64,000 nucleotides of DNA from a bacterium (GTDB lineage: Bacteria > Patescibacteriota > Patescibacteriia > JACQRZ01): NCBI GenBank assembly GCA_023246095.1, contig JAHFJA010000001.1, forward strand, positions 1,062 to 65,061, written 5' to 3'. The translations under genes and the position numbers were made by a program. The notes under the pieces are model-generated. The model saw only the letters and a program-made list of their open reading frames with translations, was not told the origin of the DNA and made no database searches. Below, piece by piece: positions 26,466 to 42,202 of the stretch (position 1 is the stretch's first letter; each line of letters begins with the position of its first letter).

Positions 26466-26517
26466 CAAATAATAAAGCACCATCCTATTTCAAGACAGTG
26501 CTTTTGCATTTTCACTT

Positions 26518-27021
26518 TCAAAGCCAATTTTTTCTCTTACCCATAATGAATTCTAAAATCTTCTCTAAAGTGCCTTTATAGGTGGAACTTGCATGATGCT
26601 CAGGACGCTCATAGATGAAATCTATTACCGCATGTATCTTTCTAGATTCCAGATACTCCATGACTTCATCAATCCGAACCTGGTCCCCGTTCATATACTC
26701 AACAACCACAGGTTTGATAGGTGCGGCATCAAGATACGGCATTGTCTGTTTAATTACATCAATGGTGTATTCTTCATGATTGGAAGAGTATAACGCCATT
26801 ATACGAAGCTGTATTTCGTTGAATGTTTCGATGATGATGGGAACCTCTCCTGCGTGTGGCTTAGCCGCTCGCATGAGGCGCAAAAGAGCAAATAAATCTT
26901 TTGGTTTATTCTCTGCGTCAAGCAGTACTTTCCTCAAAAAGGACAATTGTGGTGGATCGTGCTTATCGACTTCAAATATCTTTGGGTATTCCTGAATTAG
27001 ATTCAGTAGTTGGGCTTTCAT
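26518..27021 (-). CDS. Hypothetical protein.
   Basis: 167-aa ORF. Confidence 0.4.
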   Translation of the reverse strand: MKAQLLNLIQEYPKIFEVDKHDPPQLSFLRKVLLDAENKPKDLFALLRLMRAAKPHAGEVPIIIETFNEIQLRIMALYSSNHEEYTIDVIKQTMPYLDAAPIKPVVVEYMNGDQVRIDEVMEYLESRKIHAVIDFIYERPEHHASSTYKGTLEKILEFIMGKRKNWL

Positions 27022-27116
27022 TGTTGTTCTCCCTTTTCAATGTTCTGCCATTACATTGGTTCTACTTATAACACAAAAACTAGGTACAGTCAACACCACC
27101 TCTGGGGCACTATCAC

Positions 27117-27539
27117 CTAACTTCCTATCTCTTTCAGTAGCTCAGATAACTGAAGGACCATGGAGTGCTTAGACTCAGGAATGACTTCCTCAGAAAGGAG
27201 TTCTGCTTTTTCAATCTTCTCTAACAGCAGACGTCGTCCACCCGGAGCCATTGAAACGTAACTTACTCGTGCGTCTCTAGAGTCGGTCTCTCTTGCAATT
27301 AAGCCAATCTTTTCCATGGGAGCAAGAAGGCGTGTTACGCCCGACGCAGTAAGTCCTATCTTGTCAGCCAGATCAACCCTTCTGAGTTTTCCATCTTCGG
27401 CCTGACTAAGATAATAAAGAATCATAAAATCACTAAAACCGATTCCACCGCCAAGCCTACTATCAAACCGACGAGACATGACTGACTCAGCTCTAGAGAG
27501 ATCTAACAAACATTGCAATGATGGTTTTATTGGAGACAT
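27117..27539 (-). CDS. MarR-family transcriptional regulator.
   Basis: wHTH DLADKIGLTASGVTRLLAPMEKIGLIARETDSRDARV. Confidence 0.7.
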   Translation of the reverse strand: MSPIKPSLQCLLDLSRAESVMSRRFDSRLGGGIGFSDFMILYYLSQAEDGKLRRVDLADKIGLTASGVTRLLAPMEKIGLIARETDSRDARVSYVSMAPGGRRLLLEKIEKAELLSEEVIPESKHSMVLQLSELLKEIGS

Positions 27540-27629
27540 AATACAAATAATTGATATATACTTGACATATCAAGTATATCACCACCTTGATACATATGTA
27601 AAGCCGATTAGCGGGAAAATGTACTCAGA

Positions 27630-29399
27630 CTATTTCAGAGGAAAATTAAGAATAGTACTAAACGGTGTATCTTTTTTATATTTATCCACCGAAGAAAATA
27701 ATGCATTCAAATGAGTCTGTTTTTCAATCCCCCTCATGAGAAATGGTTTCATCGCGTGAAAACCAATAGGTGACGGCACAAGATCAAGTCCCGTATCAGT
27801 AAATTTACCTGATACAATCAATCCATACTGGGTGGTCGCCGGGGTTACTTGGTCAAAGATAAAATTACCGAGCGAATATATAATAGGACGTCCATGATAG
27901 GCTTCCATGTCTTGCACAACATGCGGGTGAGTACCTATTATGGCGTCAGCACCGGCGTCAATCCACGAATGCGCCAGGCTCTCTTGTAGTGGAGAATGTT
28001 TGAGTGCATACTCAATACCCCAATGAGGGTATATGAGCACCTTATTTGTCGGATCTTTTTTTATTGTCTTAATCTGGTCAATTAAATCTTTCTGTAAAAA
28101 AGTACTTTCATTGATGGCAAGAACGCCGATAAGGTATAAATGATATCCTTGTCCATCGACGTGCACAATCTTGATATCCTTTGTTGCGCGAGGATCACCA
28201 AACGACATAACGTTGGCATTGCGCAACACCTGACGAGAAAGCTCGAGTCCTTTTTGTTCATCATTGAGTGCATGATTATTCGCAAGACTCACAGCCCGTA
28301 AATGGAGATACTTCAACGCCGCAAGGGCTTGTTTTGGAAAAATAAATGTGAGATCACTCGCGACTTTTTTTGAAATAGAAGTTTGATCGGTGATCGCCCC
28401 TTCGAGATTGGCAAATGGCGCATCAACACCCCAAAACACTCGATCACCTAGCTCCGCAAATAGTGATTGATAATTCGAGCCAAATTTTGTTGCCACACCC
28501 CGTGCCAGCATGATATCCCCCGCCACAGTAAACGTTACGGAGTTATCAGGAACAGTAGGTTTACCTGTCTCATACCAACCAAAAACATGGGTGGTTGTTT
28601 CAATGTCGGGATTATTAAGAAGTACACCGCTATTTGTGTGACCATAGAGATTAAAATGCTTTGTATTGTGCAATGTCGCCCAACGAGAAAGTAAATAGAG
28701 CGCTTGAGGTGAGTCAACTTCCGTTTTGTTCAGTAGTGTGTCCCCATCAACATTTTCCAAGGCCCGGACAGAAACAGTATCGTGAATGTCAGATAACGCG
28801 GCTGGTTGATAATGAGAAAAATCGACCGAAGCAATCATCAGACACGAGGGGCATGTCGTATTCAGAGATATATCAAGTGAGTCAATGGTAGTTTGGGGTG
28901 CATCCTGCCTGACAATAATAGGTACGATCTGCGCGTGGGGAAATACTGCATGAATATCGGCAAGCACATAACGTATACCATGATCATCTGTCACATCTTT
29001 GGGCTGGTCATCAGCGATATGATCGCGCAACAATGCCTCAACAGTGATTTTGTCCGGTTCCATTGTTCCTTTGGCAAGCATCCATGTCTTTGTCGTTGTC
29101 TGAATAGCTGCCTTTCCTGCACTAAAATGATTCGGCGATACAATGATAACAGTCGGAGGCTCTGATTGAGCAAAAAATGCATCTCGCACGTGAGCCAAGA
29201 ACTCTTGGCGTTTTATTTTCACAATATCGTGATGAGGAATCACGATACCCGAAATACCGACGGACTGGACCGACGGTGATAGAATAATAGCAGTTGGCGA
29301 TACACCAACATTCCCTCCCCACAAATGAGTGAAGAGGGAAAAGATGGCAAAAAGTTCTTTCACGAAATTATTTTTGTAATAACCCGCCCCATTCGACAA
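27630..29399 (-). CDS. Fusion protein: N-terminal MEMO1/AmmeMemoRadiSam-B-like domain + C-terminal CapA/PGA_cap metallophosphatase domain.
   Basis: N-half: VIPHHD, IVSPNHF, ASVDFSHY. C-half: VAGDIMLARGV, ANLEGAIT, SLANNHALN, GADAIIGTHPHVVQ, SLGNFIFDQ. Confidence 0.5.
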   Translation of the reverse strand: MSNGAGYYKNNFVKELFAIFSLFTHLWGGNVGVSPTAIILSPSVQSVGISGIVIPHHDIVKIKRQEFLAHVRDAFFAQSEPPTVIIVSPNHFSAGKAAIQTTTKTWMLAKGTMEPDKITVEALLRDHIADDQPKDVTDDHGIRYVLADIHAVFPHAQIVPIIVRQDAPQTTIDSLDISLNTTCPSCLMIASVDFSHYQPAALSDIHDTVSVRALENVDGDTLLNKTEVDSPQALYLLSRWATLHNTKHFNLYGHTNSGVLLNNPDIETTTHVFGWYETGKPTVPDNSVTFTVAGDIMLARGVATKFGSNYQSLFAELGDRVFWGVDAPFANLEGAITDQTSISKKVASDLTFIFPKQALAALKYLHLRAVSLANNHALNDEQKGLELSRQVLRNANVMSFGDPRATKDIKIVHVDGQGYHLYLIGVLAINESTFLQKDLIDQIKTIKKDPTNKVLIYPHWGIEYALKHSPLQESLAHSWIDAGADAIIGTHPHVVQDMEAYHGRPIIYSLGNFIFDQVTPATTQYGLIVSGKFTDTGLDLVPSPIGFHAMKPFLMRGIEKQTHLNALFSSVDKYKKDTPFSTILNFPLK

Positions 29400-31041
29400 G
29401 AGTAAATCCGTTACGAGCAGGTGCGCTCAATATCTGCGGATCAATCGCGACAGGCGATTCGAGTCCTTTGAAGTCGAGGAAAATGCGAATCATAGTATCT
29501 GGTTTAGGAGAAACAGTGAGCGGTGCAAGGGCGTTCATATCGCGTGTGGAAAGCCATGACAGGCGGACATACGGAGTACTTGGCATTTTTGGCAACCAGA
29601 AGGCAAGGAAATCTGAGCTTTCTTTTTTATTGAGGCCCATGGTGGCGAGTTGCGATTTCAATGTAGTCTCGATATCCTTGCGAGCCACCACAAATCCCTT
29701 ATCGATGGTTGGGTAATAACCATGACCAATCCCCTCCCAAAACAGTGAATCATAGTGAGAACCATCCGCCATGGTGAGATCACCGTTTGGTTGAGCAACC
29801 ACGTTCCACCCATCGTTATATGCAGGTTCTGATTTTGTAATTGACGCATCAACACTGACACTCACTTGAGTTGTTTTTGTAGGATAGAGATACACAACCG
29901 GTTTTCCACATTCGGCAGATGGACCATATTTTGTGTTATTCAACAAAAGGTAGCGCCCAAGTTTGTCTTTAATAACCACCAGAGAGTGACTTCTTAAAAA
30001 AAGGTCATAGGTCATCTCTCCGTAGTTGCTCGGTATTTGCTCGTACAGGTTTTTCAAGAGTGGGTGATTAGTATCGCTTATTTCATAAATTGTACTGCGA
30101 TTATCATAAGCGTGCAGATCACCCCAATCTAAGGTACCTGTTTCTTTAAGAGCCGGCACTTTCCCATCAGCAAAAATACTTACATATCCTCCCATACCAC
30201 AGCCACGTGTGTTTAAGTACTGGTACGTATCTTTGTTGCTTTCAGAAGCCCCTGCCCACGTCGCGTTTAAAACGCTATCATCTCCATACAATCGCGGGGT
30301 GTACTGATACTGTTGAAGGACGCCGTCCAATTTCTTAAGGATAAAAATCTGACTCACCACCGACTCGATGTCTCCACTCGCAACCGTGTTGTACAAGATT
30401 CCATTAGGGTACGTCTTTACTTCTTTCATCACGTCTTTTACGTCACCAAGGTGCGCACCTGATAGATATTCCTCACCAACTATATCGAGGGGTACGGTGT
30501 AGGCAACATAATCCGGTGATATAATCGATGAGTATTTTTTCTCTTTGTTGATCGTTACATTACTGGCAAAACCTCCTCCTCCATAAGTGAATCCTCCTTT
30601 ATCGTCAAATCGACTGGGTGTCATCGAGCTAAGTACATCGTATGATGTATCGCTTTGCTTCACGAAATATAGAAGAAAATCATTAGTTGGATCATCTGGT
30701 GGTACGTCGGCAATAATTACTTCCTTACCGTTATCGGTACCGATTTTATAATACTCAATTGGCGATCGAACAGTTGATCCATCTAGTGAGATACTTGCAT
30801 CAATAAGCTTCAAATCACCAAGTTTCTGTGGCTCAACAAGCCACGAGACACCAGATTCCAAGATAGTCGGTTCTGGAGCAGGCGCAGCAGGTTGTTGCAC
30901 GACAGGTGTTTCCACCACCGGCGCAACGACAGGCGCAAGTGCCGTCTTTGTCTTTACCGAATAATACGTGACCCCAACACTGACGACCGCAACAGCTACC
31001 AGCCCCACAACAATGAGGAGATAACGAGATGATTTATCCAT
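29368..31041 (-). CDS. Signal-anchored extracytoplasmic hypothetical protein.
   Basis: N-terminal TM LLIVVGLVAVAVVSVGVTYY. 557 aa. Confidence 0.5.
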   Translation of the reverse strand: MDKSSRYLLIVVGLVAVAVVSVGVTYYSVKTKTALAPVVAPVVETPVVQQPAAPAPEPTILESGVSWLVEPQKLGDLKLIDASISLDGSTVRSPIEYYKIGTDNGKEVIIADVPPDDPTNDFLLYFVKQSDTSYDVLSSMTPSRFDDKGGFTYGGGGFASNVTINKEKKYSSIISPDYVAYTVPLDIVGEEYLSGAHLGDVKDVMKEVKTYPNGILYNTVASGDIESVVSQIFILKKLDGVLQQYQYTPRLYGDDSVLNATWAGASESNKDTYQYLNTRGCGMGGYVSIFADGKVPALKETGTLDWGDLHAYDNRSTIYEISDTNHPLLKNLYEQIPSNYGEMTYDLFLRSHSLVVIKDKLGRYLLLNNTKYGPSAECGKPVVYLYPTKTTQVSVSVDASITKSEPAYNDGWNVVAQPNGDLTMADGSHYDSLFWEGIGHGYYPTIDKGFVVARKDIETTLKSQLATMGLNKKESSDFLAFWLPKMPSTPYVRLSWLSTRDMNALAPLTVSPKPDTMIRIFLDFKGLESPVAIDPQILSAPARNGFTLVEWGGLLQK

Positions 31042-31127
31042 AAAGTCAGAAAGATAAGAATAGTACTGTTACTATAGTCATTTTTGGGTTAGATAGCAAG
31101 AAGGTACTATCCAGCAATAACAATAAT

Positions 31128-31457
31128 TTGTGCTACTATAATCTTACTTATAATGAACTATTACATATGGATGCCCTCACTTTAAAAAAACATCTGAATG
31201 AAGGAGCTAGTATCTTACTGTTAGATGTCAGAGAAGCAGCTGAATACGAGCAAAGCGATAAAATAGAAGGTTCTATAAACATACCGATGACAAGAGTACT
31301 TGCCGAAGTAAATATGGGAACAATACCAAAAAACATGCCGATAGTTACGATATGCAGAAGTGGCGCCAGAGCCGAGATGGTTGCACAAGTACTTAAGCAA
31401 AAAGGCTATAATATAGAATCACTTGAGGGCGGAATGGATGCGTGGAGTGAAGTATAA
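31128..31457 (+). CDS. Single-domain rhodanese-like sulfurtransferase.
   Basis: LLDVREAAEY...CRSGARA active-site Cys loop. Confidence 0.75.
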   Translation: MCYYNLTYNELLHMDALTLKKHLNEGASILLLDVREAAEYEQSDKIEGSINIPMTRVLAEVNMGTIPKNMPIVTICRSGARAEMVAQVLKQKGYNIESLEGGMDAWSEV

Positions 31458-31514
31458 GGCCGTGGTGGAGTGGGGGCAAAAGAAAAGAGGGTTGAATACA
31501 CCCCAAAATAGTTA

Positions 31515-31853
31515 TTAGGCGATCGGAATTTGCTTCAAAAATTCAAGCGTCGCTTTTACAGAAAGATTATCGGTATGCAAAAAATGAAGTTTATTACCCC
31601 ATTGCTCTGCCAAGGGTGTAACAAATTCATCCGCCCAAGAAGGTGTAAGTACTTTAACACCTTCAAAATCAAGTTCAATCATGTCTGCTTCATCCTTTGA
31701 AGGAAATATATATGCCTGCGCGGACAGATACGCCTCTTTTCCTGATGGACGGGAAGAAAGAAAATCACCAAAATTTTTCATTATAATTTTCATAGATATC
31801 AAAACGTTAATATGGCAACCATACCCTTCAATCCATCGTCCGCCATTGTGCAT
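31515..31853 (-). CDS. STAS-like DUF4325-type small protein (likely partner of the adjacent GHKL kinase).
   Basis: ELDFEGVKVLTPSWADEF motif. Probable true start at MKIIMKNF. Confidence 0.4.
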   Translation of the reverse strand: MHNGGRWIEGYGCHINVLISMKIIMKNFGDFLSSRPSGKEAYLSAQAYIFPSKDEADMIELDFEGVKVLTPSWADEFVTPLAEQWGNKLHFLHTDNLSVKATLEFLKQIPIA

Positions 31854-32374
31854 GCAGACGCACTGGCGTCAATCACATACGTACCACAACCTGAACGATA
31901 TTCTAACTTCCATTGTTGTTCTTGCACAACCTTTGCCACGAGTTTTAAACCATTGCCTCGTCGTTCTGGGGCACGGCCAGAAAGAGTCTCAGTAAAAGCC
32001 ACCGTCAACGCTTCGCAATCATCGGCAATACTGGGTCGAACCTGACGCAGAGTAGCGAGAATTCCTTGGCCTCGGTCAGCAATTACCACCATCCTTTGAT
32101 CGGCATTATATACAAAATACGCACCTCTTTCATCGCGCCAATTACCAAGATTGTGATCAAACGTATTATTCCCTATCTCACCTATCACAAGTCCAAGAAG
32201 ATATGCATTCTCGCCAATGGAACGATCACTGGCACACTCAATAACTAATTTATCCGCTCTTGCTTGAAAAATATCCCGCGTAGGACAATGCTCGTCAGGC
32301 AACAAAAAACCCACACCATTATCCATAGAAACCCAATCAAAGGCTTTTTGAATTTGCGGAATCAGTTCTTTCAT
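31799..32374 (-). CDS. GHKL/HATPase_c-type ATP-binding protein (anti-sigma-factor/serine-kinase-like).
   Basis: IGEIGNNTFDHN (N-box), ADRGQGI (G1), GNGLK (G2). Confidence 0.5.
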   Translation of the reverse strand: MKELIPQIQKAFDWVSMDNGVGFLLPDEHCPTRDIFQARADKLVIECASDRSIGENAYLLGLVIGEIGNNTFDHNLGNWRDERGAYFVYNADQRMVVIADRGQGILATLRQVRPSIADDCEALTVAFTETLSGRAPERRGNGLKLVAKVVQEQQWKLEYRSGCGTYVIDASASACTMADDGLKGMVAILTF

Positions 32375-32488
32375 ATATGGTCAATCTATCACAGAGCTCC
32401 CATAATTTCAAGCAATAACCAGAATAAATGGGTCGGAAATAGGGGGTTTTAAGCAACTAACAGCCAATGAACCTAATTTGTACACGCT

Positions 32489-32812
32489 TTATGTAATGTC
32501 CTTTTGTATTGTGCCAAAAGAGAATTCTGGGATGTGAACTTTTGCAGGTATTTCGTAGTAAGACCCTTCCACTCTTTGAATATATGCGTATCGAAGTAAT
32601 CGGCCGTACTTATCCTTATCTCCTTGAGTATGATCGCTTTCAAGGCGCACTTTTTTATTCAACAGCATCTCTTTTGCCTTGTTTGAAGCCTCCTTGCCAA
32701 AACATTGGACAGTCTTGCGAGGGTCAACCGTCTCTGGTGTGTCGATACCGATAGAACGTGGAAGTCGAAAACATACCCCCAAAACCGAGCGCAAGCGCCA
32801 GCGGAGTGACAA
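32489..32812 (-). CDS. Thermonuclease (SNase-like) domain protein, probably frameshifted at its N-terminus.
   Basis: LPRSIGIDTPE...YGRLLRY core. A signal-peptide-like MMNQIVTPLALALGFGGMFS is in a different frame immediately upstream, at a G5 run at 32767-32771. Confidence 0.5.
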   Translation of the reverse strand: MSLRWRLRSVLGVCFRLPRSIGIDTPETVDPRKTVQCFGKEASNKAKEMLLNKKVRLESDHTQGDKDKYGRLLRYAYIQRVEGSYYEIPAKVHIPEFSFGTIQKDIT

Positions 32813-32914
32813 TTTGATTCATCATAAGGTAGAGAGATTAACCCCCATTCTGCATTATACGGTGTATCTGATCGATACTTCTTTATACCCACTTCCAATA
32901 TAACACTCCTCTCC

Positions 32915-34135
32915 TTAAAACGTTATTTTCTCCTCCCGATATCGAGTACGTTCCTTATTGGGTGACCGGAGTCGGAAATAGCGCGAAGGCATTTTTACGT
33001 GAAGTAGCGCTGATATTTTTTCTATCATTTGCAAAAATTCTTTGTTGGGCGTTTCAAAAGGAAAATTCAATTGCAGATCGATGGAATTTGTATTCTCTAA
33101 CAAGAGAATTATGCCGCTCTCCTCGATGAAATCAAATGGTTTTAATACGTTGGATATTGGCGATAAATGCTTCCAGCGAAAGTTCAAATAACAAGTAATC
33201 CACGATACGCAATCCCTCGTATATTCTTGACCATGAGCCGTATTTGCATATTTAGGAAATGGCTTCTCAGCTTCAAGAAAATCAATGCACTGTTCAAGCA
33301 TACTAAAAGGCAGTTGCCAATTTAGCTGTGAACGAAGAGGGCCTTTACTTATGAATTTTGGTTCTCCAAATAGAGCGATTGCCCTCTTGCATAGGGGTTT
33401 TGTGCTTTGGCCATTTGTATCTTTATCAGTTTCCACTATATGGAACTGAACTGCCTCGCTGTCGTCAACGAGGGTAGCAAATTCTTCAAAAAATGTATCC
33501 AATTCTTTGATTAGTTTCTTCTTATCACGCATATATACCGCCTGAAATCCATCCGCATGAGTGCTATAAGTGAGAAACGTAGGGAACGTATATTGGAATG
33601 GCGCAGGATTTTTGACGTTCAAGAAAAATTCCAGTCGTGCACCGTGTAATATCGTATTAAATCTAGCCCCATTCTTTAATTTATATCCATCAAGATCGGA
33701 AGGAGACCGTAACACTGTCTTTATGGCTTCAGCAGTTTTCAATTCATAAAGGCTTGGCAAAACATGCTCTGTGAGCGCATTCTTCAATCTTTGAATACTT
33801 TCCTTTTCGGTACAGTTGTAGATTTCGAATATCTCAATAGCTTCCTTTCGAAGCATTACCTCTTCCGCGCGTGCTCTCATATGACATTCATACTCATGCG
33901 GCCATTCAGGGACGGTGACTAATGTCACTGGCGGAAGACATCGAATATAGACACTCGCATTGAGATAATGGCTACCTCCGATACCCGTCTGAAAATTTAC
34001 AATAAGTATTGTTTCTGGAGTATGAAGATACCATGTCGAAGCGATTTTTTTGAATCCCTTTGGCTTCAATACTTCATGAATAGCTTGACGATACTTGTTG
34101 TGAATTGGGTCTGATGCCATATATATGCTGTACAT
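32915..34135 (-). CDS. Hypothetical protein, DUF4304-like N-terminus.
   Basis: 406-aa ORF; N-terminus IHNKYRQAIHEVLKPKGFKKIASTWYLH. Confidence 0.35.
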   Translation of the reverse strand: MYSIYMASDPIHNKYRQAIHEVLKPKGFKKIASTWYLHTPETILIVNFQTGIGGSHYLNASVYIRCLPPVTLVTVPEWPHEYECHMRARAEEVMLRKEAIEIFEIYNCTEKESIQRLKNALTEHVLPSLYELKTAEAIKTVLRSPSDLDGYKLKNGARFNTILHGARLEFFLNVKNPAPFQYTFPTFLTYSTHADGFQAVYMRDKKKLIKELDTFFEEFATLVDDSEAVQFHIVETDKDTNGQSTKPLCKRAIALFGEPKFISKGPLRSQLNWQLPFSMLEQCIDFLEAEKPFPKYANTAHGQEYTRDCVSWITCYLNFRWKHLSPISNVLKPFDFIEESGIILLLENTNSIDLQLNFPFETPNKEFLQMIEKISALLHVKMPSRYFRLRSPNKERTRYREEKITF

Positions 34136-34209
34136 TCAAGTGTTACTACGTTATTGCTGATAATACTGGCAGCTTCCAGGGTGAAAAGCAAATAATGTAC
34201 AAGGAAAGA

Positions 34210-34872
34210 TTAGATTTGGATAAAGTATCCAACACAACGAGAAACCTTTGCTACTTCCGTTCCACTGAGGGTGGTATTTCTATTTGTGAGCCATTTAGAG
34301 AGCTTATCTTTACCAAAGACTTTTTCAATACACTTCTTGGCACCTGATTTTTGACTGTTATAAAACGAATAGAACGTATCGCTTTGAGAAATTGCCGTGC
34401 TCACCGGCTTGATCATATCCGTAACAGAGCTTTTTTTATTTTTTTTGCTAGTCGCACTGGTTTTTTTTACTGACGTCGACAACACAGTCTGAACACCAAC
34501 TCCAAGTTTCTTTCCTTCACGTAATAACAATTTCCATGTGGTCGGTCCCACATATCCATAACCAGTACTATCAGCTGTTCCTTGACACGCAATATCGTGT
34601 GCACACTGAAAACGCTTGAGTGCCGCAAGAGTGCCAGAGCTGAATGTGTCGGTTTCATGCCCCGGTGACCCTTCACCTGTTCGTGAAATAATAAACCCAT
34701 CGTTATTTAGTATTTTTTGCAGCACCATGACCTCAGAACCTCGTGTACCTATACCCATTCCTGACGAGGCGGCATATACATTTTGCCCAAGTGCTATCGC
34801 ACAGATTATGACAATAATAACCAATAAACGGCCCATATAGAGTAGTAATAATTTCACCATACAGTCTATCAC
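34210..34872 (-). CDS. Secreted protein with a peptidoglycan-binding (PG_binding_1-like) domain.
   Basis: Signal or anchor. GSEVMVLQKILNNDGF...GTLAALKRFQ. Confidence 0.5.
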   Translation of the reverse strand: MIDCMVKLLLLYMGRLLVIIVIICAIALGQNVYAASSGMGIGTRGSEVMVLQKILNNDGFIISRTGEGSPGHETDTFSSGTLAALKRFQCAHDIACQGTADSTGYGYVGPTTWKLLLREGKKLGVGVQTVLSTSVKKTSATSKKNKKSSVTDMIKPVSTAISQSDTFYSFYNSQKSGAKKCIEKVFGKDKLSKWLTNRNTTLSGTEVAKVSRCVGYFIQI

Positions 34873-34944
34873 TTTCCTTGTATATCAAAAACACCCCAAA
34901 GTGTTAGTAAATAAAGCCGACCCAGCATTCTGAATTCTCGCCGT

Positions 34945-35907
34945 GTGCGCTATAATAACTACATGAAAAAGATTAGTCTTACAGCCATAGTGACCGCGAG
35001 TATCATTCTACTTATGGGTGTAAGTTTTCTCTATCTCAAGAAAAAAGAAATCGCATCGCCAAACAACATTGCCTGTACCCAAGAAGCAAAGCAATGTCCC
35101 GATGGTAGTTATGTTGGTCGTACAGGGAAAAATTGCGAATTTACTGATTGCCCCGCTATAGCACCCAAAACAATACCACCAACCCCGCAACAACCACCCT
35201 CAACACCGCCCCCTACACCAGTGCCAACACCAGTGCCCTTACCTAAACCAGCCCCAACACCAACACCTCCCCCAAGCGGAGTAAGTGAATGCACATCAGA
35301 CAAAGACTGTCCCTCGTCGCTCGTTTGTCACGCCGGCACGTGTACTGAACCGATAACTGCTCAGTGTAGTGGACCTGACGACACGAGCTGTTCCCCTGGT
35401 TATCGCTGTATTCAGAGCTGCGGCCCTCCTGTTGCAAGAATAGGAGACCCTCCCCCACCATATTATTGTGAACTCGAAGAAGTAGCCTCAAAACCTCGCA
35501 ACTGTCCTATTTGTTTAGCCTCAAACACAGAAGTTGCTACACCAACCGGTAATCATAATGTCAAAGATATAAAAATGGGAATGCTTATATGGTCGCTTAA
35601 CAAAAATGGAGAAAAGGTTGCAAGTACCGTAATAAAAATATCACACACTCCTGTTCCAAGAACACATCGAGTAATACATCTTACACTTTCAGATAAAAGA
35701 GAAGTATGGGTATCACCTAATCATCCGACTGTAGATGGCAGAACGATTCAAGAACTACAGAAGGGAGACCTGTATGATAGATCATACGTTCAATCGACAG
35801 AGCTGATTCCTTATTGGGATACCAATACCTACGACATCCTATCAGATAGCGATACTGGTTATTACTGGGCGAATGGAATTTTATTAGGAAGCACACTTAA
35901 AAAATAA
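34945..35907 (+). CDS. Membrane-anchored Cys/Pro-rich protein with a C-terminal Hint (Hedgehog/intein-like) domain.
   Basis: TM anchor. PTPxP linker. Cys-rich modules. Hint block CLASNTEVATPTG...VSPNHP...YWANGILLGS. Confidence 0.55.
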   Translation: MRYNNYMKKISLTAIVTASIILLMGVSFLYLKKKEIASPNNIACTQEAKQCPDGSYVGRTGKNCEFTDCPAIAPKTIPPTPQQPPSTPPPTPVPTPVPLPKPAPTPTPPPSGVSECTSDKDCPSSLVCHAGTCTEPITAQCSGPDDTSCSPGYRCIQSCGPPVARIGDPPPPYYCELEEVASKPRNCPICLASNTEVATPTGNHNVKDIKMGMLIWSLNKNGEKVASTVIKISHTPVPRTHRVIHLTLSDKREVWVSPNHPTVDGRTIQELQKGDLYDRSYVQSTELIPYWDTNTYDILSDSDTGYYWANGILLGSTLKK

Positions 35908-35964
35908 ACAAAGATCACCACTCTTTGCAATGATGACTCTCTTGGTAGAGCTATCGTACATTGT

Positions 35965-36011
35965 CTTCCCATGGGCAACAGGTGGTCAACGATTAGACAC
36001 CGAGTGGGGAG
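35965..36011. repeat. Direct-repeat copy 1 (~45 bp, imperfect) flanking the dsRBD module.
   Basis: cttcccatgggcaacaggtggtcaacgattagacaccgagtggggag vs 41045-41086. Confidence 0.6.
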
Positions 36012-36028
36012 ATGAAGATACGCGAAGA

Positions 36029-36064
36029 TAAAAAAATTCTACTGTTTTTACAGTAGAATTTTCA
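36029..36064. terminator. Bidirectional rho-independent terminator between convergent genes.
   Basis: Perfect 10-bp stem aattctactg / cagtagaatt with loop ttttta. A-run 5' and T-run 3'. Confidence 0.7.
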
Positions 36065-36166
36065 ATTATCCTCCTTTCTTCAAATAACAATTATCATATT
36101 TCAGTCGACTTCTTCCGATTCAATATTCTGTGAAAAAATCCGATTGGAAATTCTTATCATCTCCCC

Positions 36167-38614
36167 TCACCCACAAAGTAGTGGCATTACAAGAATAAGT
36201 TGCTCATACAACATAACACACGCTAAACGTCGGGCCTTTTTGTAACTCGCATGAGCTATGGGATCCGACCGCACCACGCTACCATTAATGTTCGCTTGAG
36301 CGATTACTTCTGTAAAATTTCCAACTGCTTTTTCTTCATACACAACATCAAATCTATAGGTCTTTTTTAGATTATCCAATAAATTAAGATTCTGTTTGAA
36401 GGTTGGCGAGTCATAAAATAGATTTTCATCATTTGCTGTATATGCTCGTAATATTGCCAGTAGTTGTACTGAAGCCAGTTTGCGTGCAGTTACTGAATTT
36501 CCCCCATAAACAATATCTGTTTGAAATTGGTTTCCCATAAATGTCATGGAGGCCTGACCTGCAAAGATATCAGGCTGACCAAACTGAACCCGCGGATTTA
36601 CTTCAATCAAAGGTATAACACCAAAATGATTTAAAGCAAATGTATTGAGTTTACCAATGGGATCTTCTTCGAACACTTGTTTGGGAGCGTTAATTCTTTC
36701 AACTTTCATTGAACCAACTAACTGTGGTTGTTTAGTTTCAACTGATTGCTTTGAAAGATCGTCAACATCTGTTTTTCCTTTATCGGTCTTCTCTGTCTGC
36801 AAACCAGCTCTTTCCATAGCCCCCAAAAACATGTTCATTGTTGCCTGTGTTATTGTTTCTGACTCGAGGGAAAGTACTGATTGGATCATGTGTTTTCCTG
36901 TATGAAAAACACCAAATTGACGCCGCAGAAATCCCTCAAATATAGTTTTTTCACCGGAAATATATTTTAACCGCGAAATACTATACCCCCGCTCCTCCAG
37001 CTCCTCTTTTGCAAGTTTGAGCATTTCTCCTTTATTCCCAAGGGCAATCGTATAACGTACCTCTCTTTTTTCAACAAATGAAACCTCAATTTTTGCCCGT
37101 GTTACAATGTCTTTATTTGTAATCGTACTTTGTGATTCATTCGATCGAGCTGTTTTTAGGCTTTCCACAAGATACGGAGCTCTCATACGCTCTTCGTGGG
37201 TCAATGATTGAAGGATCTTTTCCCATGTCATCCCCAAAAAACGCATTGAAAGAATTTTTTGTTCTACGGCGTGATAGTACTGTGGAGCAGCGATAAGCCC
37301 ACCATTAAATACACAATATTGACCAAATATTCCCAAGACACTTGCAAGATTATGACGCCTACTCTGGAATACACCATCAACGACCAACAAATCTTCATTG
37401 GGTACACCTGAAAATCGCATTCCACGGCCAAGCGCTTGTTTCATTTTCCATTCAGAACCCAAACCGTATGGACGCAGCATTATGACAAGATTTATGTTTG
37501 GTATATTCAAACCCTCTCCGAGTTTTTCACAACTAAACATGAGAGTAATTTCGCCCTCCCTGAATTTTCTCATCTGTTCATCGAACGTCTCACGATCCAT
37601 ACTTCCGTCAACATATGATGCGCAAAAATGTTTTTGAGGTCCATACACCCTGTGTATAGCCGGCATAAGTTCTTTGTTGCACATGTCTGCATAGTATTGC
37701 GCGTCCGCCACGCAAACCGTAAACCCAATACCTTTGCGATCTATCACCCCAGTAGCCCCTAAATCACGTAACAATCGATCATCGCTAAGATATATCTCTT
37801 TGAGGACCTCAAATCCTAAATGAGGATTTTTACCAATGATTCTAGAAACGGAAACTTCATTAAGGATTGTTTGCGCTCCCCAACGCACAGCATCGGCTCC
37901 CGATATATCTATCTTTGTCCTTGCCTCGATCCAACGAACAGGTTTTAGTTGACCTTCTTGAATCAACTCAACCATGCTTTTGTGATAACTCAAAAACCTT
38001 TTGTAGTTTGCTCCAACCACTTGTACACCCTGATCTTCATCGGATACGACAGGATCAAAGAAAAAGTAAGGAGAACGCATTAAAGGACCTTGCACTGTTC
38101 CACTTACCCCGATACAAAATGCCGACGTTTTGTTAATGAGATCAGCAACACGTTCCGTAACATTGTGACATTCATCCAACAAAATCAAACCAATATTCTT
38201 CTTAAAGTTTTCAACAAACGTTTTCTCATTAAATCCATAATAGGTCATAAATGTAACAAGCGGATCTTTTACAAGTTCATCGCGATACTCTCTGGAAGTC
38301 AGGTTTCCACTCACCAGAGTTCTTATACTTGTATCCGGTATATCCTTTAACCAGAGACGCGCCTCACCAATATCCAATCCTGCACCATCGTTTTCCTCAT
38401 CAGATACTTCGTCAGGAGTAAAGAGAAACTGTTTTACTAGGTTCGTTCTTGAGGTAAGAACAAGAACTTGCTGTGTTAAACCATGTCGACGTATTGTATT
38501 TATGTAGGCGCGAACAAGTGCTCCTAGTAGCATAGATTTCCCTGCACCTGTTGGTATTTCAGCTGCCGGGCGTGTATAGCCCCGACGAAATACTTCACAC
38601 ACAGCTAAGATCAT
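36167..38614 (-). CDS. SF2 DEAH-type helicase with two tandem C-terminal dsRNA-binding domains.
   Basis: Motif I IPTGAGKS. II LLDECHNV. III VSGTVQ. VI QALGRGMR. C-terminal dsRBD-like blocks ending GGNSVTARKLASVQLLAIL and SYKKARRLACVMLYEQL. Confidence 0.6.
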   Translation of the reverse strand: MILAVCEVFRRGYTRPAAEIPTGAGKSMLLGALVRAYINTIRRHGLTQQVLVLTSRTNLVKQFLFTPDEVSDEENDGAGLDIGEARLWLKDIPDTSIRTLVSGNLTSREYRDELVKDPLVTFMTYYGFNEKTFVENFKKNIGLILLDECHNVTERVADLINKTSAFCIGVSGTVQGPLMRSPYFFFDPVVSDEDQGVQVVGANYKRFLSYHKSMVELIQEGQLKPVRWIEARTKIDISGADAVRWGAQTILNEVSVSRIIGKNPHLGFEVLKEIYLSDDRLLRDLGATGVIDRKGIGFTVCVADAQYYADMCNKELMPAIHRVYGPQKHFCASYVDGSMDRETFDEQMRKFREGEITLMFSCEKLGEGLNIPNINLVIMLRPYGLGSEWKMKQALGRGMRFSGVPNEDLLVVDGVFQSRRHNLASVLGIFGQYCVFNGGLIAAPQYYHAVEQKILSMRFLGMTWEKILQSLTHEERMRAPYLVESLKTARSNESQSTITNKDIVTRAKIEVSFVEKREVRYTIALGNKGEMLKLAKEELEERGYSISRLKYISGEKTIFEGFLRRQFGVFHTGKHMIQSVLSLESETITQATMNMFLGAMERAGLQTEKTDKGKTDVDDLSKQSVETKQPQLVGSMKVERINAPKQVFEEDPIGKLNTFALNHFGVIPLIEVNPRVQFGQPDIFAGQASMTFMGNQFQTDIVYGGNSVTARKLASVQLLAILRAYTANDENLFYDSPTFKQNLNLLDNLKKTYRFDVVYEEKAVGNFTEVIAQANINGSVVRSDPIAHASYKKARRLACVMLYEQLILVMPLLCG

Positions 38615-38638
38615 CTCTTTTTGAACAGGCCTCCAGGT

Positions 38639-38938
38639 TCAATTAATGCCAAATCTCATTGGATATTGAATATGTTGCAACTGTTCCAAAAAAACATTCA
38701 TGAGCGGTATTATCATTTGCTGATAGTTCTTTTTAAAATCAGAATAGACTTTCGATTTACCGCTTACATTTTGAGGCTTGTTTGCGTTTTCCAATATAAT
38801 ATTGGCGATCTCGTACAGTTTCCTGTCACCTCGTATATCAAAGCCATAACCCGCGGATACCCGCACTAAATTTGTCAATGCACTAATGTTATTACCCAGT
38901 AGAGCCATGCAAAAAACCTCCTTCACGATATATACCAC
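38639..38938 (-). CDS. Small hypothetical protein between the exoribonuclease and helicase genes.
   Basis: 99-aa ORF, same strand, 25-bp gap to the helicase. Confidence 0.35.
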   Translation of the reverse strand: MVYIVKEVFCMALLGNNISALTNLVRVSAGYGFDIRGDRKLYEIANIILENANKPQNVSGKSKVYSDFKKNYQQMIIPLMNVFLEQLQHIQYPMRFGIN

Positions 38939-39069
38939 AAATTACCCCTAAAGGGCGCTCACACAATACCATACTTTTCAGAAAAGTCAAGTGGCATCGA
39001 ACAAAAAAAGAGTGTGTTATATACACACTCTCGTCGTTATTTTTCTACATTTTAAGACAAATAGAGGCA

Positions 39070-40878
39070 TTAATGCGGCGGAAGCATTGAGAGCACTGAC
39101 TCCGCTGCAAAATGTTCTGCATTTTTTTTCGTACCAGCAGAACAGGGGTTTGATTGATATCGTTTTTCAGGCGTAGAGACAGTCACCACAATAGTAAAAA
39201 TCGACCGATGTGGAGATCCTTTTTGTGAAATCACTTCGTACGCAGGACGGTTCCATTTTTTCTGTTGACATAATTCCTCCAATCGACCCTTAAAGTTGTC
39301 GGATGGCGGTGTGTTAAGTGATGGTAAAACTTCTGGAATCAAAAAATCATTTTTATTGTCTTCTTTTTCACTTTCAACACCAATTATTGTACCGATTAAA
39401 CTCACGGCGGCAGATTGCCGAGAATTTTTTAATGTATTTCCAATACACACCTTCGAACTGCACATATTGTCATTAAAAACTATACTTGCCATACTGGAAA
39501 ATCCTCCAACAACCTCATATGATTCGTATTCTAAATTGGCAAAGGGGATAGATTTATCCTGACAAGCCATTACGAGTGTCGAGACGGCTTTTTCTTTATG
39601 ATTCATCAAATGCGAAAATATCTCACTACGTATACGTTTCCACACTAAAGAATCAAATTGCAAGGTTTTAAACAATATGAAGTAAATATCTTGCACAGGC
39701 AAATCTCCTGTGTTAAGACGCCTAATTACTTCATCTTCCAGAGGTTGAGGTGGCTCAACGTTTTCGCATGCAACACGGACTACCCTATGAAACTCAACGG
39801 TACTTGCATCCTGAATTTGACTATCCTGTAAGAGCTGTTCTCCCTGCTCGCGCCTCTTAAATGCAAAATGTTCGTCTTTTTTCATGCGTTCCTGATCCAT
39901 CAACGTATTCAGATTTATCGCAAGTGTATCCAATTCTTCCGGTCTATAGGGAGTAGGATCATTTTGCAGAACTGCAAGCAAAATCCTTTGATTTACCAAA
40001 TCAGCATACCTACGGATAGGTGATGTAAAATGGCAATACACAGGAAGGTTTAACGCAAAATGGCCACGTACAAAAGAATCATAAGTCGCTCTGTTCAGAA
40101 TCAGACTGAATCGATGGCGCAAAGTCTCCGGATTCGATATAACAGAGCAAGCCCCCATGGATGCCAAATCTTCTCTCAGTATATCTCGATCTGACGCCAC
40201 AACATGTGCTGTGTGATTTCTATACAATGCTTGTGTTCTTTTCTGTACTAAATATTCTGCCACCATTTGATTGGTCAGAATCATAAACTCCTGAATAATC
40301 TGATATGCATTTATGGAATCAGGGGTATTTAGACGAATTAGTTGTCCATCCTCATTGCACACCCATCCATCCTGCATATCATACATCACAAGTGCTCCAG
40401 ATTCAGAACGTTTTCGTGCTAATCCTTTTGCAAGGGTATTCGCCACATGCAACATTGCATAGAACTCAAATGTAGTATCCTTAAGACTCTCATTCACTTG
40501 TTTATAATTTAACTTTGCCACACTCTTTCCATGTGTTTGCTGTATATCTACAGAACGACACACAAAATCTTTATCAATACCCATAGTCACCTGAAAAACG
40601 CGCTTTGAGTCGTCAGGTAGTAAACTTAACTCTCCCTCGGATAGTTCCCTTGGAAGCATTGGACTACTCCCAGCTGAAGAATACCTTGTGAACCCCTTTC
40701 TTGAAGCTTTCATGTCAATCAATGTCCCCTTCTTCACAGCAAAAGCAACATTCGCAATGGAGACGGAAAGACAATAGCGCCATCCGTCCACATTTTCTTC
40801 AACCCAGATAGCATCATCAAGATCTTTTGACGACTCACCGTCTATAGTTACCCCAATAACATTTACGTCTTCTGTCAT
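39070..40878 (-). CDS. RNase II/R-family (RNB domain) exoribonuclease with two tandem C-terminal dsRBDs; no N-terminal cold-shock or S1 domains.
   Basis: RNB motifs DLDDAIWVE and HFTSPIRRYADLVNQR. dsRBD-1 ends GNTLKNSRQSAAVSLIGTI. dsRBD-2 is LCQQKKWNRPAYEVISQKGSPHRSIFTIVVTV...GTKKNAEHFAAESVLSML. Confidence 0.7.
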   Translation of the reverse strand: MTEDVNVIGVTIDGESSKDLDDAIWVEENVDGWRYCLSVSIANVAFAVKKGTLIDMKASRKGFTRYSSAGSSPMLPRELSEGELSLLPDDSKRVFQVTMGIDKDFVCRSVDIQQTHGKSVAKLNYKQVNESLKDTTFEFYAMLHVANTLAKGLARKRSESGALVMYDMQDGWVCNEDGQLIRLNTPDSINAYQIIQEFMILTNQMVAEYLVQKRTQALYRNHTAHVVASDRDILREDLASMGACSVISNPETLRHRFSLILNRATYDSFVRGHFALNLPVYCHFTSPIRRYADLVNQRILLAVLQNDPTPYRPEELDTLAINLNTLMDQERMKKDEHFAFKRREQGEQLLQDSQIQDASTVEFHRVVRVACENVEPPQPLEDEVIRRLNTGDLPVQDIYFILFKTLQFDSLVWKRIRSEIFSHLMNHKEKAVSTLVMACQDKSIPFANLEYESYEVVGGFSSMASIVFNDNMCSSKVCIGNTLKNSRQSAAVSLIGTIIGVESEKEDNKNDFLIPEVLPSLNTPPSDNFKGRLEELCQQKKWNRPAYEVISQKGSPHRSIFTIVVTVSTPEKRYQSNPCSAGTKKNAEHFAAESVLSMLPPH

Positions 40879-41044
40879 TTATTATTCCTCCATCACACAT
40901 TTTAAATGTACTCATTCACACACGAGCCTAGCAGAAAATATATAAAAAGTCAAGAGTTTGCATGAGACTAAAAACACAGTACTAGAACGTGAACGAGTTT
41001 CTTGGTCACTACCACAGCCAGTTAATTTTTACCTCTTTTCATCA

Positions 41045-41086
41045 CTTCTTGGGCAACCGGTGGTCAACCGGACACTGAGTGGGAAG
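41045..41086. repeat. Direct-repeat copy 2 flanking the dsRBD module.
   Basis: cttcttgggcaaccggtggtcaaccggacactgagtgggaag; about 80% identical to copy 1. Confidence 0.6.
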
Positions 41087-41197
41087 TAATGGAATATTAA
41101 AAAAGCTCACTATTTTATTAGTGGCTTTTTATATTTTGTTTTTTACTTATTCGTCGTACCCTATAGCTACTTAGATATCTAGAGATCTATAACCAGC

Positions 41198-41845
41198 TTA
41201 ATATTGGTCTGGAAGTCTCTTTTTTATCTCCTTATATGTAATATCTATAAGAGAAAAAATCTCATTTTCAACAGCATTTAAAAGTGTACTTACGAGAATA
41301 GGTATTGTCTCTTCCCCTGGTTTAAACTCTGCAAATTGATACAGCTTTAATCTATTAACAATTTGATTTTTATATTTATCTACTTCCTTTATCCAGCCTT
41401 TAATAATAGGAATGTCCGTAAACAACATTGAACGATAATCAATCTTAAGTGTCTTTTCTATTAATGAATTGTCGGGATAAAAATCCAATCGCTCCACAAA
41501 ATCAGAAAAAATTACACCTTGTTGACGTAACTCACCATATGACACGTGTTCACTTGTGGTAACGAAGAATTTTCCATAGCCATGCCAACATCTCCATGTC
41601 CTAGCTCCAAGTTCATAGATATCACTAAAATGATAAATAAGAATGTGATTGCTTAGCTTGTGTATTTTTCTCAGTAGATGTAGAGCTTCAAAGACTTCCA
41701 CATTTGCAATGTCTAAGAGTATAACATCAGATTGTGTTACATCTTCAAAGGAATCTGAAACAGTTTTTCTTATACACTCATGACCTTCATGTGTTGTACT
41801 CGTATTTCCACTTGGTTTGGACGTAACAACAATAAACTTTCTCAT
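41198..41845 (-). CDS. Hypothetical protein in an AT-rich tract.
   Basis: 215-aa ORF; weak hairpin plus T-run downstream (~41100-41135). Confidence 0.4.
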   Translation of the reverse strand: MRKFIVVTSKPSGNTSTTHEGHECIRKTVSDSFEDVTQSDVILLDIANVEVFEALHLLRKIHKLSNHILIYHFSDIYELGARTWRCWHGYGKFFVTTSEHVSYGELRQQGVIFSDFVERLDFYPDNSLIEKTLKIDYRSMLFTDIPIIKGWIKEVDKYKNQIVNRLKLYQFAEFKPGEETIPILVSTLLNAVENEIFSLIDITYKEIKKRLPDQY

Positions 41846-42092
41846 TTATTATCCTCCTTCGTAAGGAAACTTATAATTGTATATTTTTCAAAGGTCTTTT
41901 TTGTTTTCTACCCAAAACACCAAAATCAACCTTCCATGGCCATAAGTATACCATAAAACTATAAATAAGTCAAGCGTTTTATAGACATTTTTTCCTTATA
42001 AATGTAGCCTTTTCTGCAATTAACGTATTTGCTTGTAAATATAAAAAACAGACTAAAGGGCTGCGAAATCAACGGTTTTGACGATTTTTGAT

Positions 42093-42116
42093 CAAAAAAC
42101 AGGGCTTTAAACCCTG
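42093..42116 (-). terminator. Terminator downstream of tRNA-Glu.
   Basis: Stem caggg / ccctg with a 7-nt loop; A7 on plus strand gives a U-run on the minus transcript. Confidence 0.5.
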
Positions 42117-42127
42117 CTTCTCGAAAT

Positions 42128-42197
42128 AGTCCCACGGGGAATCGAACCCCGATTTGGTCCGTGAGAGGGACCCGTCCTAACCGTTAGACGATGGGAC
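42128..42197 (-). tRNA. tRNA-Glu (anticodon CUC).
   Basis: Acceptor GUCCCAU / GUGGGAC. Anticodon stem GGUCC/GGACC with loop CUCUCAC. T-arm CGGGG-UUCGAUU-CCCCG. Confidence 0.85.
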
Positions 42198-42202
42198 CAA
42201 AT

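What the first reader, a model, noticed from the sequence alone, without database searches (positions are those of the whole stretch)
35965..41086. Imperfect ~45-bp direct repeats bracket the dsRBD module
cttcccatgggcaacaggtggtcaacgattagacaccgagtggggag (35965-36011) and cttcttgggcaaccggtggtcaaccggacactgagtgggaag (41045-41086) are about 80% identical direct repeats. They lie just outside the 3' end of the helicase gene and just upstream of the RNB gene. Copy 1 is followed by a perfect bidirectional terminator. The interval to tRNA-Glu (41100-42127) is very AT-rich and holds one orphan ORF. This looks like att-like scars of an insertion at tRNA-Glu, or a shared regulatory or structured RNA motif. 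Both copies have ccgg/ggtgg-centred partial dyads.
Basis: seen in the sequence. Interest (0 to 1): 0.55.

Follow-up and report, generated by a model that had tools for sequence, protein, structure and literature searches.

The report
Paired hairpin-terminator repeats flanking gene block
Two diverged copies of a roughly 100-base hairpin-plus-terminator unit bracket a three-gene nuclease/helicase block in a variable island beside tRNA-Glu of a Patescibacteria genome; the repeat is real but low-copy, matches nothing catalogued, and is not a classical tRNA attachment-site scar.

Summary
Copy W1 (35965-36011) and copy W2 (41045-41086) share an exact core, TGGGCAACNGGTGGTCAAC, that no shuffle of the window reproduced twice. 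The similarity continues more weakly through a linker and an intrinsic terminator, so the repeated unit is about 100 bp. Upstream flanks are unrelated.

Each copy folds into a long imperfect hairpin. Its non-Watson-Crick pairs are nearly all G.U on the + strand.

The host is a Patescibacteria (CPR) metagenome-assembled genome. The repeats lie in a 15.7-kb variable island between tRNA-Glu and a Sua5/YrdC gene. A relative has only 4 kb there. Relatives carry a large serine recombinase, or its remnant, against tRNA-Glu.

The repeats are not related to tRNA-Glu or its flank, and no recombinase lies between them. No match turned up in Rfam, phages, plasmids, 185,579 species genomes or JGI metagenomes. 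One borderline third copy sits beside the recombinase remnant in the relative.

Best reading, at 0.4 confidence: a lineage-specific, REP-like or small-RNA-like 3'-end element acting as + strand RNA, with copies marking block boundaries in the island. A recombination scar and a neutral duplication remain live rivals. Interest is low to moderate.

The parts
35965..36011 (+). W1: repeat core. Imperfect hairpin with outer stem CUUCCCAU/GUGGGGAG and inner stem GGUG/CACC. The stem is extended by unrelated flanks to 35961-36015.
   Evidence: Folds at -20.3 kcal/mol on + (z -2.4) against -10.7 on - (z +0.1).
36012..36068 (.). W1 linker and bidirectional intrinsic terminator. A-tract 36030-36036, stem 36032-36063, T-tract. 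It ends the helicase gene on the - strand and the Hint-like gene on the + strand.
   Evidence: Weak but non-random similarity to the segment after W2 (38/5000 shuffles).
41045..41086 (+). W2: repeat core. Outer stem CUUCUU(G)/(U)GGGAAG. The stem is extended by flanks UUUCAU/AUGGAA to 41037-41094.
   Evidence: An identical copy is in the independent Logan assembly L009.
41087..41145 (.). W2 linker and A-tract/stem/T-tract terminator (stem about 41100-41130). It lies 68 nt beyond the stop of the orphan ORF on the - strand.
36167..40878 (-). The bracketed block: SF2 helicase (36167-38614), small ORF (38639-38938) and RNB + dsRBD ribonuclease (39070-40878).
   Evidence: Relatives of the RNB-dsRBD protein elsewhere have no helicase neighbour.
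34945..35907 (+). Secreted Pro-rich protein with a weak Hint-domain match. It converges on W1, so W1 would lie in its 3' UTR, 58 nt after the stop.
41198..41845 (-). Orphan 215-aa ORF in the AT-rich stretch between W2 and tRNA-Glu.
42126..42199 (-). tRNA-Glu (CUC). It forms the conserved edge of the variable island and is the target of large serine recombinase elements in relatives.
26444..42114 (.). The variable island between tRNA-Glu and Sua5/YrdC. It holds both repeat copies.
   Evidence: tblastx synteny with L023. Gene content.

Best explanation
W1 and W2 are two diverged paralogous copies of a roughly 100-bp intergenic unit. The unit is a long imperfect hairpin with a sequence-conserved interior, followed 10-20 nt later by an intrinsic terminator, read on the + strand.

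I read it as a lineage-specific, low-copy, REP-like or small-RNA-like 3'-end element of this Patescibacteria lineage.

**Shown:**
- The repeat is real and the unit includes the terminator.
- The hairpin is kept in every copy, and stems are lengthened by non-homologous flanks.
- Folding favours the + strand.
- The copies sit in the gaps between consecutive gene blocks of a variable island.

**Inferred:**
- The unit is transcribed at the end of + strand RNAs. For W1 that is the 3' UTR of the Hint-like gene. For W2 it is an antisense or independently started short RNA.
- The hairpin plus terminator forms a stable 3' end that blocks 3'-5' exonucleases or insulates the neighbouring, oppositely oriented genes.
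- Because the unit recurs at block boundaries, it may also have supplied the short homology at which the RNB/helicase block was joined in. That would explain the bracketing without a tRNA-type att mechanism.
For: - **Repeat significance:**
- **Unit includes the terminator:** linker plus terminator are more alike than chance (38/5000), while the 60 nt upstream are not (4518/5000).
- **Interior better kept than terminator:** within the unit, the hairpin interior matches at 37 of 42 aligned bases. The terminator part matches much less well. This points to constraint on the hairpin's sequence.
- **Outer stem:** 100% of cells pair in three copies, and four pairs vary on one side only without breaking. 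The whole structure pairs at 92%, against 50-57% when partners are slid.
- **Stem extension by unrelated flanks:** UUGU/AUGA in W1 and UUUCAU/AUGGAA in W2.
- **Strand asymmetry:** W1 folds at -20.3 kcal/mol on + against -10.7 on -. By my own count on the sequences, non-Watson-Crick stem pairs are about 14 G.U to 2 A.C on the + strand.
- **Terminators:** each copy is followed by a terminator on +.
- **Possible third copy:** same orientation, in the tRNA-Glu-proximal island of a relative whose MurF is only 72% identical (nhmmer E 0.09, full length, best non-self hit).
Against: - Only two certain copies exist, both inside 5 kb. nhmmer --max found no further copy in the 64-kb window or about 57 kb of related loci.
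- An exact-pattern scan of 185,579 species genomes and of JGI metagenomes gave only chance hits in high-GC DNA.
- No pair in the outer stem shows a change on both sides. Shuffle controls with 3 sequences are uninformative.
- No shared promoter lies upstream, and there is no + strand gene upstream of W2.
- W2 folds about as well on the - strand.
- The L023 copy lacks a terminator, folds no better than shuffles, and is statistically borderline (blastn E 0.56).
- There is no expression data.
Confidence: 0.4

Rival explanations
1. Recombination scars. The RNB/helicase block entered, or can leave, as a circle by site-specific or hairpin-directed recombination at W, leaving one copy on each side. 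The enzyme would be encoded elsewhere, for example a serine recombinase or an HUH/IS200-type enzyme that recognises hairpins.
For: - The copies are in direct orientation and bracket the block exactly.
- The setting is an integration hot spot: the island varies between relatives, and relatives have a large serine recombinase or its remnant at tRNA-Glu.
- The possible L023 copy directly abuts the breakpoint of the truncated recombinase gene.
- The window encodes one intact large serine recombinase 25 kb away.
- The RNB-dsRBD gene looks horizontally acquired, with its best relative at 39% identity.
Against: - No recombinase or transposase lies in the block or the island.
- W has no similarity to tRNA-Glu or its flank, and there is no third copy at the tRNA.
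- Loci of recombinase homologues L028 and L029 have no W.
- Identity is only about 80%, with two indels, and the similarity runs on into the terminator. An att core would not do that.
- attL and attR of serine integrases are hybrids and are not expected to be this alike (established knowledge).
- No empty-site or alternative junction was found in any assembly.
Confidence: 0.25
2. A neutral leftover. An old segmental duplication of an ordinary intergenic 3' end (hairpin plus terminator), or of the 3' UTR of a lost paralogue, occurred during gene turnover in the island. The unit has no function beyond termination.
For: - The copy number is very low and confined to one island.
- No homologues exist anywhere else.
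- The unit includes a generic terminator.
- No compensatory double changes are seen in the outer stem.
Against: - The core is much better conserved than the adjoining terminator.
- Stem deviations are almost all G.U on one strand.
- Stems are extended by non-homologous flanks.
- If the L023 copy is real, it has survived a divergence at which all surrounding island DNA has been replaced.
Confidence: 0.22
3. A coding sequence. The copies are C-terminal ends of small or decayed genes in the + frame WATGGQ(RL/P)DTEW(G/E). W1 could encode a 33-aa hydrophobic peptide, MMTLLVELSYIVFPWATGGQRLDTEWGDEDTRR, resembling a type I toxin.
For: - Two of the three substitutions are synonymous third positions in this frame, and the internal indel is 3 nt.
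- A stop codon and then a terminator follow in both copies.
Against: - W2 has no start codon (ATG, GTG or TTG) after the preceding stop, and W1 has no ribosome-binding site.
- A phmmer search of 1.84 billion representative proteins gave only two low-complexity repeat proteins.
- In L023 the frame has no start and overlaps the divergent Gmad2 promoter region.
- Three substitutions are too few for a codon-position argument.
Confidence: 0.05
4. A DNA-level regulatory site. Read on the - strand, the motif (TTGACCACC.GTTGCCCA) would be an operator or promoter element upstream of the RNB operon, or a regulator-binding site.
For: - W2 lies 167 nt upstream of the RNB start.
- The reverse complement holds a -35-like TTGACC.
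- The L023 copy lies 50-100 nt upstream of Gmad2, on that gene's strand.
- A MarR-type regulator is encoded in the island.
Against: - W1 has no co-oriented gene downstream on the - strand. It faces the 3' end of the Hint-like gene.
- No consistent -10 box is found in the three copies. This is my own reading of the sequences and is only weak evidence.
- A better promoter candidate for RNB (TTGACT-17-TAGGCT) lies closer to the gene.
- On the - strand both copies lie just downstream of terminators.
Confidence: 0.08

Closest known systems
REP/BIME-type extragenic palindromic repeats (Enterobacteria, Pseudomonas) and similar intergenic hairpin repeats
   Same: Short imperfect palindromes, outside genes, at 3' ends and between convergent genes, next to or combined with terminators. 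They act as RNA 3'-end stabilisers against RNase II-type exonucleases, and can be hot spots for recombination and insertion.
   Different: REPs occur in tens to hundreds of copies and are linked to RAYT (HUH) transposases. Here only 2-3 copies are known and no RAYT was seen. The best-conserved part is the roughly 30-nt interior, not the stem.
Direct-repeat att scars of genomic islands integrated at tRNA genes
   Same: Direct repeats bracketing horizontally acquired genes in a variable island that starts at a tRNA gene. Recombinase genes sit at the same tRNA in relatives.
   Different: The repeat is not a copy of the tRNA 3' end or its flank. There is no copy at the tRNA and no integrase in the bracketed DNA. 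Identity is only about 80%, and the repeat continues into a terminator.
Terminator-bearing bacterial small RNAs, including 3'-UTR-derived sRNAs
   Same: A unit of about 100 nt with a 5' hairpin, a conserved less-paired sequence and a Rho-independent terminator. One copy lies in a 3' UTR.
   Different: No promoter, no expression evidence, no identifiable target and no Rfam family.
Hairpin recombination sites: integron attC, and IS200/IS605 subterminal hairpins
   Same: Directly oriented, structurally conserved hairpins flanking gene cassettes, recognised as single strands. G.T-tolerant folding on one strand would fit.
   Different: The attC R''/R' boxes (RYYYAAC...GTTRRRY) are absent. No IntI or TnpA was found. 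The bracketed unit holds three genes with their own promoter region.

Membership tests
tRNA-gene att site (attL/attR of an integrative island) | The repeats reproduce the 3' part of the target tRNA gene or its immediate flank, with one copy at the tRNA | tested here: not met
   Local alignments of W1, W2 and the L023 copy against tRNA-Glu, tRNA-Gln and the 280-nt flank did not beat shuffles (for example 468/2000 and 1305/3000).
tRNA-gene att site (attL/attR of an integrative island) | An integrase or recombinase gene lies inside the bracketed element, next to one repeat | tested here: not met
   Pfam on every ORF of 35965-41086 and on the rest of the island found a helicase, RNB+dsrm, and unknowns, but no recombinase. 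The only recombinase in the window is at 10194-11813.
tRNA-gene att site (attL/attR of an integrative island) | The bracketed DNA is present or absent as a unit in related genomes, with a single copy at the empty site | tested here: inconclusive
   Relative L023 lacks the block and has one borderline copy (E 0.09), but the rest of its island differs too. No same-species assembly with another junction was found.
Integron attC | Terminal R'' RYYYAAC and R' GTTRRRY boxes that pair in a hairpin, with an IntI integrase nearby | tested here: not met
   GGTCAAC and GGGCAAC only partly fit RYYYAAC. No GTT... partner is present in either copy. No tyrosine recombinase was seen.
REP-like extragenic palindrome | An imperfect palindrome outside genes at 3' ends or next to terminators | tested here: met
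REP-like extragenic palindrome | Many dispersed copies per genome, and a cognate RAYT | tested here: inconclusive
   Only 2 copies in 64 kb. The rest of the genome could not be fetched. No RAYT turned up among the ORFs scanned.
Any Rfam family (riboswitch, sRNA, leader) | A covariance-model match at or near the gathering score | tested here: not met
   Only the two tRNAs pass gathering. The best local hits are 15-21 bits, against thresholds of 42-150, and are to unrelated eukaryotic families.
Riboswitch or attenuator | A downstream co-oriented gene and an alternative anti-terminator pairing | tested here: not met
   The genes after both terminators are on the opposite strand. By my reading of the fold outputs, no sequence complementary to a terminator arm lies upstream.
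DGR template/variable repeat | Repeats differ at adenines of the template, the variable repeat lies inside a target gene's 3' end, and a reverse transcriptase is nearby | tested here: not met
   The differences are A/C, C/T and G/A plus indels. Both copies lie outside genes. No RT is in the annotated neighbourhood.
Small protein or type I toxin gene | A start codon with a ribosome-binding site, and homologous peptides elsewhere | tested here: not met
   W2 has no start. There are no real homologues among 1.84 billion representatives.

The most novel reading that the evidence does not exclude
The W hairpin RNAs are dedicated non-coding partners of the block they bracket. One version: they are structured substrates, decoys or guides for the RNB-dsRBD exonuclease and helicase, in an RNA-sensing or RNA-targeting system of a CPR bacterium. 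Another version: they are single-strand hairpin recombination sites that let such blocks be captured as cassettes next to tRNA-Glu by an enzyme encoded elsewhere.
Probability: 0.08. Interest if true: 0.7.

Novelty: new member of a known kind. Interest (0 to 1): 0.27.

Why it matters
- If the RNA reading is right, this would be one of very few structured non-coding elements described for Patescibacteria, whose regulatory RNA repertoire is almost unknown.
- It would also show how gene blocks in their small genomes are insulated and shuffled beside tRNA genes.
- If it is a recombination site, it would point to a way of capturing cassettes without an integrase in the captured DNA.
- As the evidence stands, this is a modest, lineage-restricted repeat. 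Its main value is as a marker of block boundaries in a tRNA-Glu island.

Tried and rejected
1. **tRNA-derived origin.** By eye the motif resembled the acceptor and D arms of tRNA-Glu. Shuffle tests showed this is chance.
2. **Fragment of the serine recombinase gene.** The L023 copy reads in frame into a recombinase remnant. But intact homologues (L026 and window 10194-11813) have unrelated sequence at that position, so the motif abuts the breakpoint rather than belonging to the gene.
3. **Feature of the serine-recombinase elements in general.** Two homologue loci, L028 and L029, have no motif.
4. **Coding remnant.** A search of 1.84 billion proteins gave only low-complexity junk.
5. **Exact-pattern scans.** GGGCAACNNNNNGTCAACN{5,25}GAGTGGG against species genomes and JGI metagenomes, and the 18-mer against viral contigs, gave only chance hits.
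6. **Conservation of the three-gene block elsewhere.** RNB-dsRBD relatives P0002, P0018 and P0054 have no helicase neighbour and no motif.
7. **More of the source genome.** Look-ups gave only about 1 kb of new DNA, and none gave an alternative junction.
8. **Seed-target search.** Complements of the conserved loop occur no more often than chance.
9. **Phage and plasmid BLAST.** Nothing was found.
10. **Covariance model.** None was built. MAFFT mis-registers the 2-nt indel in the 5' arm, and with two sequences nhmmer --max was judged equivalent.
Full report
**Observation**

- The shared core TGGGCAACNGGTGGTCAAC occurs exactly twice in the 64-kb window, both on the + strand. With up to three mismatches allowed, no dinucleotide shuffle gave two matches.
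- A global alignment of the 47- and 42-nt cores scored 23, against a shuffle mean of 3.4 (0 of 5000). They share 37 identical positions, with a 2-nt indel in the 5' arm and a 3-nt indel in the interior.
- The 60 nt upstream of the two copies are unrelated (4518/5000 shuffles do as well).
- The roughly 60 nt downstream, a linker plus an intrinsic terminator, are more alike than chance (38/5000).
- So the repeated unit is about 100 bp: 35965 to about 36068, and 41045 to about 41145.
- Both copies, not only copy 1, are followed by an A-tract/stem/T-tract terminator.

**Anatomy**

- **Shape:** each core folds into a long imperfect hairpin.
  - W1 has outer stem CUUCCCAU/GUGGGGAG. W2 has CUUCUU(G)/(U)GGGAAG.
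  - A short inner stem (GGUG/CACC in W1, CGGUG/CACUG in W2) sits in a roughly 30-nt interior, which holds the best-conserved sequence.
- **Stem extension:** in each copy the outer stem is lengthened by flanking bases that are not homologous between copies. These are UUGU/AUGA in W1 and UUUCAU/AUGGAA in W2.
- **Pair counts:** on an alignment of W1, W2 and a candidate third copy, all cells of the outer stem pair.
  - Four of its eight pairs vary on one side only without breaking.
  - The whole structure pairs at 92%, against 50-57% when partners are slid.
  - No outer-stem pair shows a change on both sides, and three sequences are too few for the shuffle control to mean anything.
- **Strand asymmetry:** W1 folds at -20.3 kcal/mol on the + strand (z -2.4) but only -10.7 on the - strand (z +0.1). 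W2 folds about equally on both. By my count on the sequences, non-Watson-Crick pairs in the stems are about 14 G.U to 2 A.C on the + strand. That is what selection on a + strand RNA, or a top single strand, would leave.

**Surroundings**

- **On the - strand:** tRNA-Glu(CUC) at 42126-42199, an orphan 215-aa ORF, then RNB+dsRBD ribonuclease, a small ORF and an SF2 helicase.
- **On the + strand:** a secreted Pro-rich protein with a weak Hint match converges on W1.
- **Position of the copies:** on the - strand each copy lies just beyond the terminator of a gene block (orphan, then W2; RNB to helicase, then W1). On the + strand, W1 is in the 3' UTR of the Hint-like gene. W2 has no + strand gene before it.

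**Host and island**

- **Host:** close relatives of the MurF protein next to the tRNA are named Patescibacteria (Falkowbacteria, Parcubacteria and others). The source is a metagenome-assembled genome seen in only three assemblies.
- **Conserved backbone:** against relative L023 (MurF 72% identical), mraZ to murF and tRNA-Glu are conserved. Synteny resumes at Sua5/YrdC, then HrcA, GrpE and DnaK.
- **Variable stretch between them:** the window has 15.7 kb and L023 has 4 kb, with no shared genes. L026 and L027 differ again.
- **Recombinase at the tRNA:** in L026 a large serine recombinase gene runs into the 3' end of tRNA-Glu. L023 keeps three fragments of that gene.

**A possible third copy**

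- **Location:** L023 holds a 47-nt sequence at 11834-11788 (- strand, the same orientation relative to the tRNA). It has the same ends (CTTCC..TGGGCAA ... GTGGGGAG) and the same length as W1.
- **Statistics:** it is the best non-self hit of an nhmmer profile of W1+W2, and it is full length, but only at E 0.09 in 121 kb. Its blastn E is 0.56.
- **Context:** it has no terminator and folds no better than shuffles. It directly abuts the breakpoint of the truncated recombinase gene. Intact homologues have unrelated sequence at that position.
- I treat it as probable, not proven.

**What the repeat is not**

- **Not tRNA-derived:** alignments to tRNA-Glu, tRNA-Gln and the flank downstream of tRNA-Glu do not beat shuffles. 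No copy lies at the tRNA.
- **No recombinase nearby:** none lies in the bracketed 5 kb or the rest of the island. The leftmost 7.5 kb of the window has none either. The only recombinase in the window is 25 kb away.
- **Not a general feature of these recombinase elements:**
- **Not in any catalogue searched:** no Rfam family matches. The motif is absent from phages and plasmids. An exact-pattern scan of 185,579 species genomes, JGI metagenomes and viral contigs gave only chance hits.
- **Coding frame unsupported:** a + strand frame (WATGGQ..DTEW) looks tidy, with two synonymous changes and an in-frame indel. But W2 has no start codon, and 1.84 billion representative proteins hold no real homologue.
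- **Not a riboswitch:** the downstream genes are on the other strand and no anti-terminator is apparent.
- **The bracketed "module" is not a conserved unit elsewhere:** RNB-dsRBD relatives (39% identity or less) stand alone beside housekeeping genes in archaea and other lineages.

**Interpretation**

- **Best supported (0.4):** a lineage-specific hairpin-plus-terminator 3'-end element that acts as + strand RNA, REP-like or small-RNA-like. Its copies sit at the joints between gene blocks in the island. Recombination between such units could have brought in the RNB/helicase block, which would explain the bracketing.
- **Recombination scar (0.25):** kept alive by the setting and by the L023 junction. 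It fails the tRNA-att tests.
- **Neutral duplicated 3' end (0.22):** cannot be excluded with two copies.
- **Coding sequence (0.05) and DNA operator (0.08):** both unlikely.

**Verdict**

The feature is real, small and not catalogued. Its mechanism is unresolved, and interest is modest.

Noticed in passing
window 10059-11825: A 539-aa large serine recombinase (10194-11813, +) whose 3' end overlaps tRNA-Gln (11753-11825, -). It is flanked by 126-bp inverted repeats that are 98% complementary (10059-10184 and 11631-11756). Homologues are abundant in Patescibacteria, often on 1.7-1.95-kb contigs with up to 131 member sequences, and sit against the 3' ends of tRNA-Arg, tRNA-Glu and tRNA-Gln. This may be a compact IS-like serine-recombinase element that targets tRNA genes.
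   Followed up: partly
window 39070-40878 (-): The RNB+dsRBD ribonuclease has no relative above 39% identity. Its homologues include archaeal proteins (Nanoarchaeia, Methanocella) that stand alone beside ribosomal-protein and tRNA-synthetase genes, with no helicase. The gene looks horizontally acquired, and its pairing with a helicase looks local to this genome.
   Followed up: partly
L026 2320-3582 (-) and L023 11310-11800 (-): The recombinase reading frame runs on through the tRNA-Glu sequence in L026. L023 keeps only three short fragments of the gene: codons from about 125 on, a middle piece, and the C-terminus. It is a heavily deleted pseudogene.
   Followed up: yes
L023 2720-4087: A bAvd-like gene lies next to a reverse transcriptase (RVT_1). 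This suggests a diversity-generating retroelement in the relative, upstream of its mraZ cluster.
   Followed up: no
window 26518-35907: The rest of the island holds a MarR regulator, a Memo+PGA_cap protein, a 557-aa unknown, a rhodanese, DUF4325, an SNase-like nuclease, DUF4304, a peptidoglycan-binding protein and the Hint-like secreted protein. None is shared with the relative's island.
   Followed up: partly
window 5401-6882 (-): A Schlafen AlbA_2 + HATPase_c_4 + winged-helix protein. It lies among several ORFs with no Pfam match at 41-5260.
   Followed up: no
window 9900-10060: A G+C-rich stretch with G-runs and short palindromes just upstream of the recombinase's left inverted repeat. No long ORF and no Rfam match.
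   Followed up: no
L025 9070-9080: The contig of the closest relative (MurF 84% identical) ends 10 bp after tRNA-Glu. That is consistent with strain variation or a repeat at this hot spot breaking the assembly.
   Followed up: no
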